Below the pieces are notes generated by a model, which saw only the letters and a list, made by a program, of their open reading frames with translations, ran no database searches and had not been told where the DNA came from. A stretch of DNA of 11,181 nucleotides from IMG/VR virus record IMGVR_UViG_3300045988_085326, positions 128,001-139,181 of that record; one strand, written 5' to 3'. Numbering within the stretch: the first letter of the stretch is position 1; each line of letters starts with the position of its first letter. A program made the position numbers and the translations under genes. Of the stretch, positions 3,243-9,964 are shown piece by piece. The stretch comes from a virus.

Positions 3243-3463
3243 ATTTTAAAATATCTTATAGACAGTCCAGATGGAGTCTTAAAACTTACTGGTGAGCGTT
3301 TATGGTGATAGGTTGTCGGTGCGGAGTGGCTTCTGCTTAAGGAGATATGTATAGATTGGAAATACCTCCAAGAACGAATACAGACAAAGAACCTTCCTTT
3401 GGCGAAATCCAAAAGAAAAACTACCTTACAAAGATGCGTTTACGACGACGCAGTAGGGACTAT

Positions 3464-3536
3464 GCGGAGGTACCCAAGTGGTGATGGGGCTGTTCTTATA
3501 AAGCAGTTGCCGTGAGTTCGATTCTCACCCTCCGTA
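3464..3536 (+). tRNA. tRNA, 73 nt, anticodon TAT (reads AUA; Ile-UAU type)
   Basis: Acceptor gcggagg/cctccgt (G1·U72). Anticodon stem ctgtt/agcag, loop cTtTATaa. T-arm gtgag-ttcgatt-ctcac. Confidence 0.65.
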
Positions 3537-3538
3537 CT

Positions 3539-3659
3539 AAGAAGGTAGCTCAGATGGGAGAGCGCCTGGATAAAGAAAATGGATTAGATATAATCCGAAA
3601 CTGCAACTCTTTTTTCTAAAGGGACCAGGATGTCGTGGGTTCGAGCCCCACCCTTCTTA
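3539..3659 (+). tRNA. tRNA gene interrupted by a ~48-nt insertion in the anticodon arm (121 nt total; isotype unresolved)
   Basis: Perfect acceptor aagaagg/ccttctt. D-arm tagctcagatgggagagc. T-arm gtggg-ttcgagc-cccac. The anticodon stem halves cctgg (3565-3569) and ccagg (3625-3629) are separated by 55 nt containing the hairpin ggatta-GATA-taatcc. Confidence 0.55.
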
Positions 3660-3662
3660 TTT

Positions 3663-3787
3663 GGCGAGATAGCGGAATGGAAAGACGCACCGGAACCCAA
3701 TCGGGTTTAGGAATAAACCATCGCGGCACTACGGACTTAAAATCCGGCGACTTCAGTGTCATGTAGGTTCGAGTCCTACTCTCGCCA
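3663..3787 (+). tRNA. tRNA-Leu(TAA), type II, interrupted by a 41-nt insertion between the 5' anticodon-stem strand and the loop (125 nt total)
   Basis: Acceptor ggcgaga/tctcgcc, discriminator A. D-arm gcg-gaatggaaaga-cgc. ccgga (3690-3694), then 41 nt (with hairpin ggttta-GGAA-taaacc), then loop cTTAAaa and tccgg. Long variable arm. T-arm gtagg-ttcgagt-cctac. Confidence 0.6.
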
Positions 3788-3879
3788 CTATAAAAATTAA
3801 AGGAGAAATATTATGCGCTGGTTAGGCGGACGAAGAAAATTTGATATATGGTAAATTAACTTTTAAGGAGGAAATTATT

Positions 3880-4473
3880 ATGTATCAAATTGAAAATAAA
3901 AGTGATATTTTTGTAGAACATTATGTAGGACGATTTCGTCGTACATATAAAATTGACCGTATTGGAACTGAAAAAAATCTGATTGTGTATCTTGCAAATG
4001 GGTTTAAATCTTTTAGTTATTATGATAGTTATGATAACTGGAATGATTATGGTTACATGGGATATGGCAATTCTCGTTTTGCTGAGCATTTTTTTGATGG
4101 TTATGGTAGAGATATAAACGGATATGCCTATAAAAAAGATGCTTGGACATATTATTGTCAATATATTCGCGGTAAAGAGACTAAGGTCAAAAAAGATTAT
4201 TCTTATTGGCGTAGAAATCAAACTTATAAAGGCACTTTTAGAAGAACACCAGTAGAAGGAATACATAAATGGCGCGGAGGTCCATCTGTCCGCCCTCGTC
4301 ATATTAAACAGATTAAAGTTCTGTATGCAAATCCTGAATATAGAGAGTTTAATAGAGGCAGCCATAAAGAAGTTCCTAATGGTTGGTGGGATGATTGGCA
4401 TCGTTGCAAAGAGAAAAATTGGAAATCTCAAAGTAAAAGACGCCATCAATGGAAAGGGGATGTTAGTATGTAA
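3880..4473 (+). CDS. hypothetical basic protein, 197 aa, very rich in Tyr/Trp/Arg/Lys
   Basis: RBS ttaaggagg 7 nt before ATG 3880 (the track's ATG 3841 lacks an RBS). Composition resembles CDS 10722..11135 and the split ORF at 4501. Confidence 0.6.
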   Translation: MYQIENKSDIFVEHYVGRFRRTYKIDRIGTEKNLIVYLANGFKSFSYYDSYDNWNDYGYMGYGNSRFAEHFFDGYGRDINGYAYKKDAWTYYCQYIRGKETKVKKDYSYWRRNQTYKGTFRRTPVEGIHKWRGGPSVRPRHIKQIKVLYANPEYREFNRGSHKEVPNGWWDDWHRCKEKNWKSQSKRRHQWKGDVSM

Positions 4474-4845: not shown

Positions 4846-5691
4846 ATGAAACTAAGAAGAATTATTGCGGCAGGAATTTTAATTTATTCCTTTATTATTT
4901 CGCCTTGTGCGTTAGCCTTAGAAAGTCAACCTGCGGAAGTAGCAGTTGAAAGCGTCTCTATTCCAGATAAAAGTAGAATAGAGACAGCAATTCCACAGAT
5001 AAGAGAAATTGAGACAAATTTGGTTAAACAACAAGAGACAGAAGTAAAAGAAAATGAAACTTATAAAGAGGTGTTTGATTATGTTTATACGACAAAGCGT
5101 GTGAACATACGAACTTATATTGGAACTGAAAGTGATATATTATTAACTGCGGAAGCAGGAACTAAATTACAACGAGTCGGAATTAATGTAACAACTGGTT
5201 GGGATTTAGTAAGAATAAATAATTGTGATTATTATATTTCAAATGAATATATTACGACTGAGAAACCAGAACAATTAGCTGATAGTATAGAACAGCAATT
5301 AGAAGATAGTAAAATTTCAGCATCAGATTTACGCTATATGTCTGCTATAATATGGGCAGAAGCTGGTAACCAATGTGAAGCAGGACAGCAAGCAGTTGGT
5401 ATTGTAGTAATGAATAGAGTAGCATCAGAAACATATAAAGATACTGTTTATGATGTTATTAATGAACCTTATCAATTTTCTCCAGTTAAAAATGGTTCTT
5501 TTGCAAAAGCTTTAAATTATTATGATAGCGGAGAAATGCCAGAATGTGTTATAGATGCAGCTAAATATGCTTTACATAGTAATACAACTGTAAATTATAA
5601 TGGTACAACGTATGACCTTGATGGTTATTTATGTTTTAGTAGATATGTAAAAAATGCTAAACTTACTATTCAAGACCATATGTTTAAGTGA
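4846..5691 (+). CDS. secreted cell-wall hydrolase: signal peptide + SH3b-like domain + SleB/CwlJ-type (Hydrolase_2) domain; probable endolysin
   Basis: N-terminal MKLRRIIAAGILIYSFIISPCALA looks like a signal peptide. The central RVNIRTYIGTESDILLTAEAGTKLQRV...GWDLVRI block resembles SH3b. C-terminal IWAEAGNQ...GQQAVGIVVMNRV...VINEPYQFSPV resembles the SleB-family signature AEARGE...AVA.VV.NRV...QF. Confidence 0.75.
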   Translation: MKLRRIIAAGILIYSFIISPCALALESQPAEVAVESVSIPDKSRIETAIPQIREIETNLVKQQETEVKENETYKEVFDYVYTTKRVNIRTYIGTESDILLTAEAGTKLQRVGINVTTGWDLVRINNCDYYISNEYITTEKPEQLADSIEQQLEDSKISASDLRYMSAIIWAEAGNQCEAGQQAVGIVVMNRVASETYKDTVYDVINEPYQFSPVKNGSFAKALNYYDSGEMPECVIDAAKYALHSNTTVNYNGTTYDLDGYLCFSRYVKNAKLTIQDHMFK

Positions 5692-5861: not shown

Positions 5862-5891
5862 ATTTATACAAAACAAAAGGAAGTGGTAGAA

Positions 5892-6212
5892 ATGAATAAA
5901 GTAAAATATTTTATTTGGGTAGATGATGAAAGAGTTTTACCTCATTATATTGATGGGATAGCAGAAAATTTCATAGTTTGTAAAACTTATAAGCAAGCTA
6001 TTAATGCTCTTGATACTTATTGTGCTATTGGCAATGTATATCTTGATTTAGACCATGATTTAGGTTGCAGACAGAACGGATATGATATTGCAAAATATAT
6101 AGTAGAGAATCAGATGCCTTTATATGGTTTTTCTTGTCATTCATTTAATCCTGTTGGTAGAAAGAATATTGAAGATTTACTCCAGCATTATGGATATAAG
6201 AAAGGAATATAA
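5892..6212 (+). CDS. hypothetical protein (106 aa)
   Basis: RBS aaaaggaag ~8 nt before ATG 5892 (the track's GTG 5883 overlaps the RBS). The YFIWVDDERVLP...VYLDLDHDLG stretch loosely recalls a receiver-like fold; not assignable. Confidence 0.6.
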   Translation: MNKVKYFIWVDDERVLPHYIDGIAENFIVCKTYKQAINALDTYCAIGNVYLDLDHDLGCRQNGYDIAKYIVENQMPLYGFSCHSFNPVGRKNIEDLLQHYGYKKGI

Positions 6213-7150: not shown

Positions 7151-7168
7151 ATTTATATAAGATAAAGA

Positions 7169-7241
7169 TAGTTATTCAGTTGGTGAGCGGCTGATGCTTC
7201 AATTAGCCATCAGCCGAGAGGTTCAATTCTTTAATAACTAC
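7169..7241 (+). ncRNA. non-canonical tRNA-like element at the 5' end of the promoter-8 transcript (8-bp acceptor-like stem, 8-bp internal stem with 11-nt loop containing UCA)
   Basis: tagttatt (7169-7176) pairs with aataacta (7233-7240). ggctgatg-cttcaattagc-catcagcc spans 7189-7215. D-loop-like cagttggtgagc and T-loop-like gg-ttcaatt-c are present, but no canonical D- or T-stem. Confidence 0.3.
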
Positions 7242-7300
7242 TATGGTTTGGCGGTGATGTTCGTCCTCAAACATAAAACCGATGCTACCGCGGCGGATAT

Positions 7301-8880: not shown

Positions 8881-8963
8881 GGGGATATGGCGGAATTGGC
8901 AGACGCATGGGACTTAAAATCCCAAGTCCTCGAGACGTGTGGGTTCGAATCCCACTATCCCTA
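8881..8963 (+). tRNA. tRNA-Leu(TAA), type II, uninterrupted
   Basis: Acceptor ggggata/tatccct (G1·U72). D-arm gcg-gaattggcaga-cgc. Anticodon arm tggga-cTTAAaa-tccca. Long variable arm. T-arm gtggg-ttcgaat-cccac. Discriminator A. Confidence 0.85.
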
Positions 8964-9586: not shown

Positions 9587-9753
9587 CTCTGTTAGGGTTT
9601 GGAATCCCTTTAACTCAACCGAGGCAGAACTAGAAGAAACCTTGCAAGGATATATAAATTATTTTATTAAACTTATTTTATGAAATGGGTCGCCGTATTA
9701 ATATTATAGCATATAAAATTTAGAAGACAACGGCGACAAAAAGATTAATTATT

Positions 9754-9829
9754 CGCAGTATAGCTCAATCAGGTAGAGCGCTCCCATTGTGGAGGGAGAG
9801 GCTATGAGGTTCAAATCCCATTGCTGCAA
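9754..9829 (+). tRNA. degenerate tRNA-like gene (good D-arm and T-loop, no clean anticodon arm or T-stem); possible pseudo-tRNA
   Basis: tagctcaatcaggtagagc D-arm and ggttcaaatcc T-loop. Acceptor cgcagta/tgctgca carries a C1·A72 mismatch. The middle (ctccc-attgtgga-gggag) gives an 8-nt loop, and the T-stem tgagg/cccat does not pair. Confidence 0.35.
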
Positions 9830-9964
9830 TTTGACGAACGGTAGGCTGCGGGTCCTGAGTCTTAGACCAAGACCTCGTCCTAGGAAGCGGCGTTCCTACT
9901 AGTCATTATCATAAAAGATATTCCTTTCAAAGTATTTTCCATGCGGAGATTATCTTCGCAATTT

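What the first reader, a model, noticed from the sequence alone, without database searches (positions are those of the whole stretch)
3539..3787. Two adjacent tRNA genes carry short (41-48 nt) hairpin-containing insertions in the anticodon arm
Both genes at 3539-3659 and 3663-3787 have perfect 7-bp acceptor stems, canonical D-arms and canonical T-arms in the right order, but are 121 and 125 nt long. In the second (tRNA-Leu-UAA by its cTTAAaa loop and type-II variable arm), the 5' anticodon-stem strand ccgga (3690-3694) is separated from the loop and 3' strand (3736-3747) by 41 nt. The insert contains ggttta-GGAA-taaacc and is flanked by a 4-nt direct repeat cgga. In the first gene, the stem halves cctgg/ccagg are 55 nt apart (insert hairpin ggatta-GATA-taatcc), and no 7-nt loop with a sensible anticodon can be reconstructed. 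These inserts are far too small for group I introns, and bacterial hosts lack the archaeal/eukaryal splicing endonuclease. An uninterrupted second tRNA-Leu(TAA) exists at 8881-8963. The inserts could be a new class of mini-intervening sequence, a small mobile hairpin element targeting tRNA anticodon arms, or inactivating insertions.
Basis: seen in the sequence. Interest (0 to 1): 0.85.

Follow-up and report, generated by a model that had tools for sequence, protein, structure and literature searches.

The report
Phage tRNAs carrying a Y-RNA-like module
The two over-long tRNA genes are real. They belong to a large, previously unrecognised family of phage tRNA genes whose anticodon arm carries a conserved 40-55-nt hairpin module, and the same signature marks the small RNAs encoded next to phage Ro60-like RNA-binding proteins, so the inserts look more like protein-docking sites than classical introns.

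Summary
Window 3539-3659 and 3663-3787 are complete tRNA bodies, each with an insert in the anticodon arm. Gene 1 has 55 nt between the two stem halves. Gene 2 has a 41-nt insert.

The inserts are neither chance nor decay:
- They persist in relatives down to 65% protein identity, with fully compensatory changes in the interrupted stem.
- Both share a module: a 6-7-bp hairpin with a GNNA loop, followed by NAACNGCAA.
- Pattern and covariance-model searches found 185 distinct module-bearing tRNA-like genes in 98 loci, of many anticodon types.
- The insert position ranges from 26/27 to 31/32.
- Deleting the insert restores a 5-bp stem in 69% of genes, against 10% in a swapped control.
- About a third have loops without U33.

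In other phage lineages these genes sit directly upstream, on the same strand, of a DUF2828+DUF7788 protein. Its model matches Ro60/TROVE structures.

In cultured phages the same "stem strand + ACAGCAA" signature flanks Y-RNA-like and YrlA-like RNAs beside that gene.

Best reading (about 0.6): the inserts are Ro60-like-protein binding modules, which makes these genes tRNA/Y-RNA chimeras. A true, enzyme-spliced intron remains possible (about 0.2).

In the window's own lineage no Ro-like gene lies within 10 kb. A relative's contig has one 10.4 kb downstream.

The parts
3539..3659 (+). Gene 1: tRNA-like gene of 121 nt. It has a 7-bp acceptor, D arm and T arm, with a module-bearing insert between the two halves of the anticodon stem.
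   Evidence: Sequence. Rfam tRNA at 49.3 bits with a 54-nt insertion. ARAGORN -i. Orthologues in L001, L012, L002, L021, L041, L062, L081 and L085.
3565..3569 (+). Gene 1, 5' strand of the anticodon stem (cctgg). It pairs with 3625-3629.
   Evidence: The stem covaries: cctgg/ccagg in the window, tcagc/gctga in L002, cctgc/gcagg in L021.
3570..3624 (+). Gene 1, the 55 nt between the stem halves. In order: an A-rich linker, the hairpin, the AACUGCAA motif, a U-rich linker, then a purine-rich 7-mer (AAAGGGA) where the anticodon loop would be.
   Evidence: Covariance model R1 hits 3574-3609 at 47.8 bits. No single contiguous deletion gives a U33 loop that is conserved in the L002 or L021 homologues.
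3581..3596 (+). Gene 1 module hairpin GGAUUA-GAUA-UAAUCC (a 7th pair would be U3580-G3597).
   Evidence: Hairpin covariation across 34 sequences: 96% of cells paired, and 43 double-change cells against 12 in shuffles (0 of 500 shuffles reach the observed value).
3599..3606 (+). Gene 1 module motif AACUGCAA, predicted single-stranded, immediately 3' of the hairpin.
   Evidence: C, G, C and A are invariant in alignment A1. The same ACAGCAA signature lies next to Ro-like genes of cultured phages.
3625..3629 (+). Gene 1, 3' strand of the anticodon stem (ccagg).
3663..3787 (+). Gene 2: type-II (long variable arm) tRNA-like gene of 125 nt, with an intact CUUAAAA loop and a 41-nt module-bearing insert in the 5' side of the anticodon stem.
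   Evidence: ARAGORN -i calls Leu(taa) i(33,41). Orthologues in L001, L002, L012, L019, L023, L062 and L064.
3695..3735 (+). Gene 2 insert of 41 nt. Because cgga is repeated (3691-3694 and 3732-3735), the insert can be placed anywhere from 27/28 to 31/32.
   Evidence: R1 hits 3697-3732 at 34.0 bits. The parser gives equivalent placements.
3704..3719 (+). Gene 2 module hairpin GGUUUA-GGAA-UAAACC.
3722..3729 (+). Gene 2 variant of the motif, CGCGGCAC. The GCGGCAC core is conserved in the L002, L012 and L062 orthologues.
3736..3747 (+). Gene 2 anticodon-like loop CUUAAAA and 3' stem strand UCCGG.
   Evidence: In orthologues the loop is hypervariable: GUA, GAA, GGG and AUA.
5883..6212 (+). Context only: a cREC (cyclic-phosphate-processing receiver) domain protein inside the tRNA array. 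It is a predicted RNA-end healing enzyme.
   Evidence: Pfam PF20274, E 2.4e-19. Function predicted in PMC7824862. Conserved in relatives L012, L019 and L020. The link to the inserts is circumstantial.

Best explanation
The two genes encode tRNA/Y-RNA chimeras. Each is a complete tRNA body whose anticodon arm carries a capped hairpin followed by a single-stranded NAACNGCAA motif. This module is the circularly permuted equivalent of the terminal stem plus ACAGCAA motif of the Y-RNA-like RNAs encoded beside phage Ro60-like (TROVE+vWA; Pfam DUF2828+DUF7788) proteins.

Proposed mechanism:
- The transcript is processed at its tRNA ends like any tRNA.
- It folds into the L-shape, with the module protruding from the anticodon stem as a three-way junction.
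- The module docks the phage Ro60-like protein.
- The RNA therefore acts as a tRNA-shaped tether, gate or decoy within a phage RNA quality-control or repair system, together with enzymes such as RtcB, cREC and the CCA-adding enzyme. It does not act as an ordinary decoder.

Shown here:
- The module, its covariation and its spread.
- Its genomic linkage to the Ro60-like gene.
- The Ro60 fold of that protein.
- The shared motif in cultured phages.

Inferred:
- Binding of the protein to the module.
- Absence of splicing.
- The biological role.
For: 1. The inserts are under selection.
- Gene 1's interrupted stem changes cctgg/ccagg to tcagc/gctga to cctgc/gcagg.
- Gene 2's stem changes ccgga/tccgg to gcaga/tctgt to cagga/tcctg.
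- Removing the insert restores a 5-bp stem in 69% of 185 genes, against 10% in the swapped control.

2. The module is shared. Both inserts and about 40 tRNA genes recovered by one pattern carry a hairpin plus AACNGCAA. The outer four hairpin pairs, which the pattern did not fix, covary.

3. The module is linked to one protein.
- A 500-535-aa DUF2828+DUF7788 protein lies 60-500 nt downstream, on the same strand, in most of the 19 loci that carry it.
- In 80 loci chosen by that protein alone, all 51 model hits are upstream and on the gene's strand.
- ARAGORN -i calls one to five long 'intron' tRNAs upstream in about 70 of those 80 loci.

4. The protein is Ro60-like. The nine best Foldseek PDB hits, and the only ones with E <= 0.001, are all Ro60/TROVE structures. 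They include the Thermus phage phiLo Ro60. Depositors of mycobacteriophage genomes call it 'Ro-like RNA binding protein'.

5. Cultured phages carry the same signature.
- Eight loci were examined (Bacillus PBC2, Listeria LMTA-34, mycobacteriophage Lolly9, Campylobacter F368, Escherichia SUSP1, Staphylococcus SEP9, Vibrio phi-ST2 and fecal record MT837221).
- ACAGCAA occurs 2-6 times on the Ro-gene strand in seven of them, against 0.4 expected. MT837221 has none on that strand and the only minus-strand copy.
- In the four loci checked, 14 of 15 copies outside the Ro-like gene (PBC2, LMTA-34, Lolly9, F368) are preceded by a 7-nt strand whose complement lies about 35-110 nt downstream.
- In Lolly9 one such RNA has a permuted tRNA-like core that matches Rfam YrlA (37.7 bits, E 7e-7).

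6. Published precedent. [quoted passage not shown] A phage Ro60 binds Y-like RNAs encoded upstream of its gene (PMC12135203).

7. Features that fit a structural module better than an intron.
- The insert position ranges from 26/27 to 31/32.
- There is no bulge-helix-bulge motif.
- 29% of genes have a perfect stem but no U33, against 4% of ordinary tRNAs in the same loci.
- Several give 8-nt loops.
- Anticodon-like triplets are hypervariable within one orthologous body: UAA, GUA, GAA, GGG and AUA.
- The same array holds an uninterrupted tRNA-Leu(UAA).
Against: 1. In the window's own lineage no Ro60-like gene lies within 10 kb on either side. The nearest evidence is a relative's contig: L002 and L183 come from the same IMG/VR contig, with the Ro-like gene about 10.4 kb downstream on the same strand. 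L057 has the gene 9 kb away. That Ro-like subtype has its own adjacent long-stem RNA without the AACNGCAA module.

2. About 55% of module-bearing genes would yield a fully canonical anticodon arm, with a 5-bp stem, U33 and R37, if the insert were excised precisely. That is what one expects of a real intron. Examples are Thr GGU, Ile GAU, Pro UGG, Lys UUU and an amber suppressor CUA.

3. The motif differs from the published Ro60 contact motifs (GGUCCGA, GNCGAA). Rfam YrlA scores only 28 bits on the window, against a gathering score of 69, and it does so across two adjacent genes.

4. No binding or expression data were available.
Confidence: 0.6

Rival explanations
1. The inserts are true intervening sequences of a new, protein-dependent kind. 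A phage or host endoribonuclease recognises the hairpin+AACNGCAA module and cuts at both junctions. An RNA ligase (RtcB or Rnl, with end-healing by cREC or similar) then joins the exons, giving functional tRNAs. The Ro60-like protein could be the specificity or chaperone subunit, so tRNA maturation would depend on the phage or be timed by it.
For: - Precise deletion restores a 5-bp stem in 69% of genes against 10% in controls, and a canonical U33/R37 loop in about 55%.
- Clean examples: L028 CG|44 nt|GCU-CUGGUAA-AGCCG; L057 Ile(GAU); L072 Arg(UCG); L058 Lys(UUU); L027 suppressor CUA.
- RNA-repair genes are nearby: cREC in the window, RtcB next to the Ro-like gene in Listeria phage LMTA-34 and in MT837221, and a CCA-adding enzyme in 8 loci.
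- Unexplained introns in phage tRNAs have been reported before (PMC6784885).
Against: - No known endonuclease signal is present. There is no bulge-helix-bulge, the inserts are not at 37/38, and their position varies over six phosphodiester bonds.
- About a third of genes would yield loops without U33, or 8-nt loops. Gene 1 of the window is one of them.
- The split stem is equally needed to hold a three-way junction in an unspliced RNA.
- The same motif occurs in RNAs that are plainly not introns: short Y-like RNAs and permuted YrlA-like RNAs.
Confidence: 0.2
2. The insert is a small self-cleaving or self-splicing ribozyme of an undescribed class that removes itself from the pre-tRNA.
For: - The module has a conserved hairpin and an invariant single-stranded motif in a 40-55-nt element.
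- Small ribozymes (theta/HDV-like) are known next to phage tRNAs (PMC10879173). One HDV-like hit was seen in a tRNA array here, at L008 5852-5917.
Against: - No Rfam ribozyme matches even at E<=10 with permissive filters.
- Only one helix covaries. The flanks pair no better than composition-matched shuffles: 4.5 against 4.1 bp.
- The junction sequences are not conserved.
- Two cleavages plus a ligation would be needed.
- The motif also occurs in non-intronic Y-like RNAs.
Confidence: 0.05
3. The inserts are selfish DNA-level insertions (a small mobile hairpin element) that have inactivated redundant tRNA genes. The genes are decaying pseudogenes.
For: - Gene 2 has a 4-nt direct repeat.
- An uninterrupted tRNA-Leu(UAA) exists in the same array.
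- Many loops are non-canonical.
- Relatives L018, L024 and L025 lack both genes.
- Homing-endonuclease traffic occurs in the same array (L001).
Against: - Acceptor, D and T arms remain perfect, with compensatory changes, in relatives at 65% protein identity. The interrupted stem covaries and so does the hairpin.
- The inserts have no terminal inverted repeats, and the direct repeat is not general (L023, gene 1).
- Orientation and linkage to the Ro-like gene are strict: 51 of 51 hits.
Confidence: 0.05

Closest known systems
YrlA / bacterial and phage Y RNAs (Rfam RF02553; Chen et al. 2014, PMC4201824)
   Same: - An RNA with a tRNA-like body (acceptor, D and T arms) joined to a helix with an adjacent conserved motif.
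- Encoded on the same strand next to a Ro60-type protein, often in several copies.
- Associated with RtcB-type RNA repair genes and recognised by tRNA enzymes.
- In mycobacteriophage Lolly9 a YrlA-like RNA beside the same protein family carries the same ACAGCAA motif.
   Different: - The topology is circularly permuted. Here the RNA ends are the normal tRNA ends and the putative Ro-binding helix is capped by a GNNA loop inside the anticodon arm. In YrlA the ends lie in the Ro-binding stem and the acceptor is closed by a loop.
- Most members keep an anticodon-like stem-loop.
- The motif is AACNGCAA, not GNCGAA or GGUCCGA.
- The Rfam YrlA model does not reach its threshold (28 bits against 69).
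- In the window's lineage the Ro-like gene is not adjacent.
Phage Ro60 with Yrl1/Yrl2 (Thermus phage phiLo; PMC12135203)
   Same: A phage-encoded Ro60 homologue (the best structural match of the DUF2828+DUF7788 protein) with small structured RNAs encoded directly upstream. Those RNAs bind it.
   Different: The phiLo Yrls are stem-bulge-stem RNAs with a CGAA motif and no tRNA body. Binding has not been tested for the RNAs described here.
'Enigmatic' introns in Lak megaphage tRNAs (Devoto et al. 2019, PMC6784885)
   Same: Short inserts in phage tRNA genes, detected only with eukaryote or intron settings, conserved between genomes, with no known splicing mechanism.
   Different: No module, protein partner or position rule was reported there. 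Lak phages have 26% GC and infect Prevotella. Whether their inserts carry the hairpin+AACNGCAA module was not tested here.
Archaeal/eukaryal tRNA introns (bulge-helix-bulge, EndA/TSEN plus RtcB)
   Same: Short inserts (tens of nt) in the anticodon arm. Archaeal non-canonical introns also occur at varied positions. RtcB-type ligation is a plausible joining step.
   Different: No bulge-helix-bulge can be drawn, and none of the inserts sits at 37/38. No EndA homologue was seen in any locus. Host MAG titles indicate Firmicutes bacteria.
Group I introns in bacterial and phage tRNA genes (e.g. tRNA-Leu(UAA))
   Same: They interrupt the anticodon arm of bacterial-type tRNA genes, tRNA-Leu(UAA) included.
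   Different: Group I introns are at least about 200 nt, have a P1-P9 core, and sit inside the anticodon loop. Here the inserts are 40-55 nt with one covarying hairpin, lie in or next to the 5' stem strand, and give no Rfam group I hit.

Membership tests
tRNA (RF00005) | 7-bp acceptor stem, D arm, T arm with a TTCRA loop, and a discriminator base | tested here: met
   Both genes by inspection. Gene 1 scores 49.3 bits against a gathering score of 29. ARAGORN -i calls both.
tRNA (RF00005) | Contiguous 17-nt anticodon arm (5-bp stem, 7-nt loop with U33 and R37) | tested here: not met
   In gene 1 the stem halves are 55 nt apart, and no conserved U33 loop can be made by one deletion. Gene 2 has an intact loop, but its 5' strand is separated from the loop by 41 nt. 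Gene 2 is not reported by Rfam at gathering score.
Group I intron | Catalytic core P3-P9 and length of at least about 200 nt | tested here: not met
   The inserts are 41 and 55 nt. No Intron_gpI hit appears even at E<=10.
Archaeal/eukaryal BHB tRNA intron | Bulge-helix-bulge (3-nt bulge, 4-bp helix, 3-nt bulge) at both junctions | tested here: not met
   Inspection of gene 2 and of clean cases such as L028 (CG|intron|GCU). Exon 2 nucleotides next to the junction pair within the anticodon stem, not with the intron. This was tested by eye only.
Archaeal/eukaryal BHB tRNA intron | A splicing endonuclease (EndA/TSEN) encoded by the host or the element | not tested
   Only partial loci were held and only a subset of their proteins was annotated. 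No endonuclease family appeared among the Pfam results obtained for window and locus proteins.
Y RNA / YrlA | Encoded within a few kb of a Ro60-type gene, on the same strand | tested here: inconclusive
   Met for the family: the gene is directly downstream in most of 19 loci, and all 51 hits are upstream on the same strand in protein-anchored loci. Not met for the window's lineage within 10 kb either side. A relative's contig has the gene 10.4 kb downstream.
Y RNA / YrlA | tRNA-like domain | tested here: met
   A full tRNA body is present.
Y RNA / YrlA | Ro-binding stem formed by the RNA's own 5' and 3' ends | tested here: not met
   The helix is an internal capped hairpin, that is, a circular permutation. 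The ends are tRNA ends.
Y RNA / YrlA | Conserved GNCGAA(N)G or GGUCCGA motif, and an Rfam YrlA score at or above gathering | tested here: not met
   The motif is AACNGCAA. YrlA scores 28 bits against 69, spanning the 3' part of the tRNA-Ile gene (3464-3537) and the 5' part of gene 1.
Y RNA / YrlA | Physical binding to Ro60 | not testable with these tools
   Needs EMSA, RIP or a structure.
Ro60/TROVE protein family (for the linked DUF2828+DUF7788 protein) | HEAT-repeat ring (TROVE) followed by a vWA domain | tested here: met
   AF2 model with pLDDT 72. The nine best Foldseek PDB hits, and the only ones with E <= 0.001 (1e-7 to 2e-5), are full-length matches to Ro60/TROVE structures. vWA domains follow. 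Pfam itself reports only DUF2828 and DUF7788.

The most novel reading that the evidence does not exclude
The inserts are true introns of a categorically new, Ro60-guided kind. The hairpin+AACNGCAA module recruits a phage Ro60-like ribonucleoprotein. Together with RNA-repair enzymes (an endonuclease, cREC and RtcB or Rnl) it excises the module and reseals the anticodon stem. Dozens of phage tRNAs, including suppressor and 'mis-anticodon' tRNAs, would then be switched on only in infected cells. This would be the first protein-dependent tRNA splicing pathway in the bacterial world and a first catalytic-pathway role for Ro60.
Probability: 0.15. Interest if true: 0.95.

Novelty: new variant of a known kind. 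Interest (0 to 1): 0.72.

Why it matters
It offers a concrete, testable lead on the unexplained 'introns' reported in phage tRNA genes, though the Lak inserts themselves were not examined for the module. It also widens the Y-RNA concept. So far Y RNAs are known as tRNA mimics. Here real tRNA bodies carry the putative Ro-binding element, and in at least 185 distinct genes.

It defines a simple signature, a stem plus ACAGCAA, for the RNA partners of a Ro60-like protein family found in about 700 cultured phages: Felixounavirus, Listeria P100-like, Staphylococcus, Campylobacter, Vibrio and mycobacteriophages. Those phages make experiments immediately possible.

The hypervariable or non-canonical anticodon loops, together with the frequent Asn, Lys, Tyr and Thr-type loops, hint at a role in the arms race with host anticodon nucleases, as decoys, sensors or repair substrates.

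Practically, standard tRNA annotation misses these genes or misnames their anticodons.

Tried and rejected
- Known RNA families. Hammerhead, twister, pistol, hatchet, HDV and group I gave no Rfam match at E<=10 over 3440-3830. The hammerhead core is absent by inspection.
- Bulge-helix-bulge. It could not be drawn.
- MITE or target duplication. There are no inverted termini, and the cgga repeat is absent in L023 and gene 1.
- Promoter reading of TATAAT in the gene 1 hairpin. Considered, not scanned. Covariation preserves the pairing, not the hexamer.
- AACUG pairing with the D-loop CAGUU. It does not covary (AACAG variants have no matching D-loops).
- A P1 helix between the A-rich and U-rich flanks. 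It is no better than shuffles: 4.5 against 4.1 bp.
- A hidden anticodon loop inside gene 1's insert (UUUCUAA or CUGCAAC). It is not conserved in L002 or L021, and CNGCAA turned out to be the shared module motif.
- The ARAGORN anticodon for gene 1 (AAA, intron at 37/38). It is not conserved in the homologues, which have A33.
- The Rfam YrlA hit in the window (28 bits). It spans two neighbouring genes and is treated as a by-product of tRNA-likeness.
- The 197-aa ORF directly downstream (3880-4473). It has no Pfam family, its AF2 model has pLDDT 64, and there is no fold match. It is also present in relatives that lack the two genes.
- megablast and blastn of the window against GenBank phages. These gave no informative match.
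- Literature. I found no paper describing this module.
Full report
**1. The observation**

The window is a phage tRNA array. ARAGORN finds 15 ordinary tRNAs and Rfam finds 14.

- Both have perfect 7-bp acceptor stems and normal D and T arms.
- In gene 1 the stem halves cctgg (3565-3569) and ccagg (3625-3629) lie 55 nt apart.
- In gene 2, ccgga (3690-3694) is separated by 41 nt from an intact loop CUUAAAA and 3' strand UCCGG.
- Gene 2 also has a long variable arm and a cgga direct repeat.

Rfam's tRNA model accepts gene 1 (49.3 bits) with a 54-nt insertion. ARAGORN finds both genes only with intron search on: Phe(aaa) i(39,48) and Leu(taa) i(33,41). No Rfam ribozyme or intron family matches even at E<=10.

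**2. The inserts are conserved and selected**

The flanking 197-aa ORF led to relatives.

| Locus | Identity on the flanking ORF | Finding |
|---|---|---|
| L001 | 97% | Both genes, essentially unchanged |
| L012 | 89% | Both genes, but gene 2's loop is CUGUAAA (GUA) |
| L002 | 65% | Both genes kept. Gene 1's stem is tcagc/gctga instead of cctgg/ccagg, compensated in every changed pair |
| L021 | - | Gene 1 stem cctgc/gcagg |
| L019 | - | Gene 2 stem gcaga/tctgt |
| L023 | - | Gene 2 stem cagga/tcctg |

Some relatives (L018, L024, L025) lack both genes.

Decaying pseudogenes would not keep perfect arms and compensate an interrupted stem.

**3. A shared module**

Aligning the inserts shows a common element:
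- a 6-7-bp hairpin whose top is UUA-GNNA-UAA;
- then, one or two nucleotides later, AACNGCAA. Gene 2 of the window has the variant CGCGGCAC.

One degenerate pattern, the hairpin top plus the motif with a T-loop required 20-50 nt downstream, was scanned in three collections:

| Collection | Stretches matched |
|---|---|
| IMG/VR | 12 |
| GTDB genomes | 18 |
| Metagenomes | 42 |

About 40 distinct matches are complete tRNA genes (7/7 acceptor pairs, 5/5 T-stem pairs) with the module in the anticodon arm. The rest are chance matches with no tRNA around them.

In the 34-sequence alignment A1 the four outer hairpin pairs, which the pattern did not fix, covary:
- 96% of cells are paired.
- 43 cells show changes on both sides, against 12 in shuffles (0 of 500 shuffles reach the observed value).
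- Slid controls give 29-51% paired.

A covariance model of the 36-nt module (R1) scores 47.8 and 34.0 bits on the two window inserts. It also finds second, adjacent module-bearing tRNAs in many loci. Pairs of such genes, as in the window, are common.

**4. Anatomy across the family**

I wrote a generic finder (T arm plus acceptor plus D arm) and ran it on all held loci. It gives a bimodal length distribution:
- 317 distinct tRNAs of 70-89 nt;
- 188 of 110-139 nt.

Of 206 long genes (105-150 nt), 185 contain CNGCA[AC] in the insert. They come from 98 loci.

Deleting one contiguous segment restores a 5-bp anticodon stem in 69% of the 185. When 3' strands are swapped between genes the figure is 10%.

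The insert usually lies inside the 5' strand of the stem. Its position is spread over every bond from 26/27 to 31/32. Clean examples:
- L028: CG|44 nt|GCU-CUGGUAA-AGCCG
- L057: CGU|...|GA-CUGAUAA-UCACG
- L072: ACG|...|GC

Window gene 2 is compatible with any position from 27/28 to 31/32 because of its cgga repeat. Gene 1 has a contiguous 5' strand.

With the most favourable parse, the loops compare as follows:

| Class | Perfect stem, with U33 and R37 | Perfect stem, no U33 |
|---|---|---|
| Module-bearing genes (185) | 55% | 29% |
| Ordinary tRNAs in the same loci | 74% | 4% |

- Several genes give 8-nt loops (L030, L034, L055, L087).
- Gene 1 of the window belongs to the non-canonical class. 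The 7 nt before the 3' strand are AAAGGGA, and UGGGCAA and GAGGAAA in homologues.
- ARAGORN's AAA anticodon for gene 1 is not conserved.
- Within the gene 2 orthologous group the body is conserved but the 'anticodon' varies: UAA, GUA, GAA, GGG or AUA.
- The A-rich and U-rich linkers on either side of the module pair no better than composition-matched shuffles.

The supported architecture is therefore a tRNA L-shape with a hairpin plus single-stranded motif protruding from the anticodon stem.

**5. The protein partner**

I clustered ORFs from the module-bearing loci.
- A 500-535-aa protein is present in 19 loci of the non-window lineages. In most of them it lies 60-500 nt downstream of the interrupted tRNAs, on the same strand.
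- Pfam gives DUF2828 and DUF7788.
- The family is huge: more than 7,900 clusters at E<1e-10.
- An AF2 model (pLDDT 72) has as its nine best Foldseek PDB hits full-length matches to Ro60/TROVE structures: Thermus phage phiLo Ro60 (9L5Y and 9KOP), Deinococcus Rsr, and Xenopus and human Ro60. vWA domains follow.

The reverse test used 80 IMG/VR loci chosen only by this protein, each with 1.5-kb flanks:
- All 51 R1 hits (E<=0.1) lie upstream of the gene and on its strand.
- ARAGORN -i reports one to five 115-145-nt 'intron' tRNAs there in about 70 of the 80 loci.

Neighbouring genes include a CCA-adding enzyme in 8 loci.

**6. Bridge to known Y RNAs**

tblastn finds the same protein family in 696 GenBank phage records, some annotated 'Ro-like RNA binding protein'. 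Eight such loci were fetched and searched for the heptamer ACAGCAA:
- In seven of the eight it occurs 2-6 times on the Ro-gene strand and never on the other strand. About 0.4 per strand is expected.
- MT837221 has none on that strand and holds the single minus-strand copy.
- In the four loci checked (PBC2, LMTA-34, Lolly9, F368), 14 of 15 copies outside the Ro-like gene are preceded by a 7-nt strand whose perfect complement lies about 35-110 nt downstream. This is the terminal stem of a Y-like RNA.
- In mycobacteriophage Lolly9 one such stem encloses T arm, closed acceptor hairpin and D arm. That core matches Rfam YrlA (37.7 bits, E 7e-7, below gathering).
- In Bacillus phage PBC2 some stems enclose whole tRNA genes.

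Closing the YrlA-type terminal stem with a loop and opening the acceptor hairpin gives exactly the order seen in the window: acceptor, D arm, capped helix, ACNGCAA, linker, T arm, acceptor. The inserts are thus the circularly permuted counterpart of the stem plus motif of these Y-like RNAs.

Published work supplies the precedent:
- Y RNAs are encoded beside Ro60 on the same strand, mimic tRNA, and are substrates of RNase P, the CCA-adding enzyme, TruB and DusA (PMC4201824).
- A phage Ro60 binds two Y-like RNAs encoded upstream of its gene (PMC12135203).
- Ro-type proteins with a tRNA-like partner are regarded as an RNA-repair platform (PMC7824862).
- RtcB lies next to the Ro-like gene in Listeria phage LMTA-34 and in MT837221.
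- The window itself encodes a cREC domain protein, a predicted 2',3'-cyclic-phosphate processing enzyme, at 5883-6212.

**7. The weak point for this particular window**

No Ro-like gene lies within 10 kb either side in the window's closest lineage (L180). The whole genome, about 100-140 kb, could not be read.

In the 65%-identity relative the same contig does carry a Ro-like gene. It is of the L057 subtype and lies about 10.4 kb downstream on the same strand (L183). L057 has the gene 9 kb from its interrupted tRNA-Ile.

In that subtype the gene has its own adjacent long-stem RNA, and R1 finds no module next to it. Genome-level co-occurrence therefore holds wherever it could be checked, but adjacency does not hold in this lineage.

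**8. Interpretation**

- Best supported (about 0.6): tRNA/Y-RNA chimeras whose insert docks a phage Ro60-like protein. Whether the RNA also decodes is unknown.
- Main rival (about 0.2): the same module marks a true intron, removed by a cut-and-rejoin pathway. The canonical anticodon arms of roughly half the family favour this. The six-bond spread of positions, the lack of any known endonuclease signal, the non-U33 and 8-nt loops (gene 1 among them), and the occurrence of the motif in RNAs that are not introns all count against it. The two readings are not mutually exclusive.
- Self-splicing ribozyme, and selfish inactivating insertion: about 0.05 each.

I found no paper describing this module or its link to Ro60. 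The only earlier mention of short phage tRNA introns calls them enigmatic (PMC6784885).

I rate it a new variant of a known kind, a Y RNA / tRNA mimic. It would be categorically new only if splicing is shown.

Noticed in passing
L001 4842-5658 (orthologue of window 3464-3537): In the 97% relative, the tRNA-Ile(UAU) gene that is intact in the window is split in its anticodon arm by about 750 nt. The insertion carries a replacement tRNA-Ile(tat) (4864-4952) and an HNH-like ORF (about 5050-5622). This looks like a homing-endonuclease cassette that brings its own tRNA copy.
   Followed up: no
window 9753-9830: ARAGORN reports a tRNA with an 8-nt anticodon loop (anticodon 'tgtg'). Several module-bearing tRNAs elsewhere (L030, L034, L055, L087) also yield 8-nt loops after removal of the insert.
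   Followed up: no
window 5883-6212: A cREC_REC (cyclic-phosphate processing receiver) domain protein lies inside the tRNA array and is conserved in relatives. It is a predicted RNA-end healing enzyme.
   Followed up: partly
window ~7160-7245: An uncalled tRNA-like piece (agttattc...ggttcaattctttaataact) with a T-loop-like GGTTCAATTCT and matching ends. Neither ARAGORN nor Rfam reports it.
   Followed up: no
L176 (Bacillus phage PBC2) 486-603, 805-927, 1416-1507: A 7-nt stem strand plus ACAGCAA, with its complement downstream, brackets whole tRNA genes or tRNA-sized gaps inside the tRNA array. One example is 805-811/921-927 around tRNA-Ile at 846-920. This is the inverse topology of the window's genes.
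   Followed up: partly
gene 2 orthologues: window 3736-3742, L012, L062, L019, L064: The same type-II tRNA body carries UAA, GUA, GAA, GGG or AUA at the anticodon position in different relatives. If these RNAs are charged by LeuRS, which ignores the anticodon, they would mistranslate. Alternatively the loop is a diversifying recognition or decoy element.
   Followed up: partly
L183 1330-1450: Upstream of the Ro-like gene of the window's 65% relative lies a different long-stem RNA (AAUGCUCUUUUGG...CCAAAAGAGCAUU) without the AACNGCAA module. It is probably that subtype's own Y-like RNA.
   Followed up: no
L008 5852-5917: A match to Rfam's HDV-F-prausnitzii ribozyme (46.6 bits, gathering score 44) sits between two tRNA genes in an unrelated 28-tRNA phage array. 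It resembles the published theta ribozymes.
   Followed up: no
L212 (MT837221) ~1300-1905; L177 (Listeria phage LMTA-34) 5341-6500: An RtcB-type RNA ligase is encoded immediately upstream of the Ro-like gene in MT837221 and 1.3 kb downstream of it in LMTA-34. This echoes the bacterial rsr-yrlA-rtcBA operon.
   Followed up: partly
L044, L045, L048, L051: Clostridia-associated contigs with module-bearing tRNAs also encode a class-I peptide release factor (PCRF+RF-1 domains) close to the Ro-like gene. Another lineage (L027, L035) carries an amber-suppressor-type interrupted tRNA (loop CUCUAAA).
   Followed up: no
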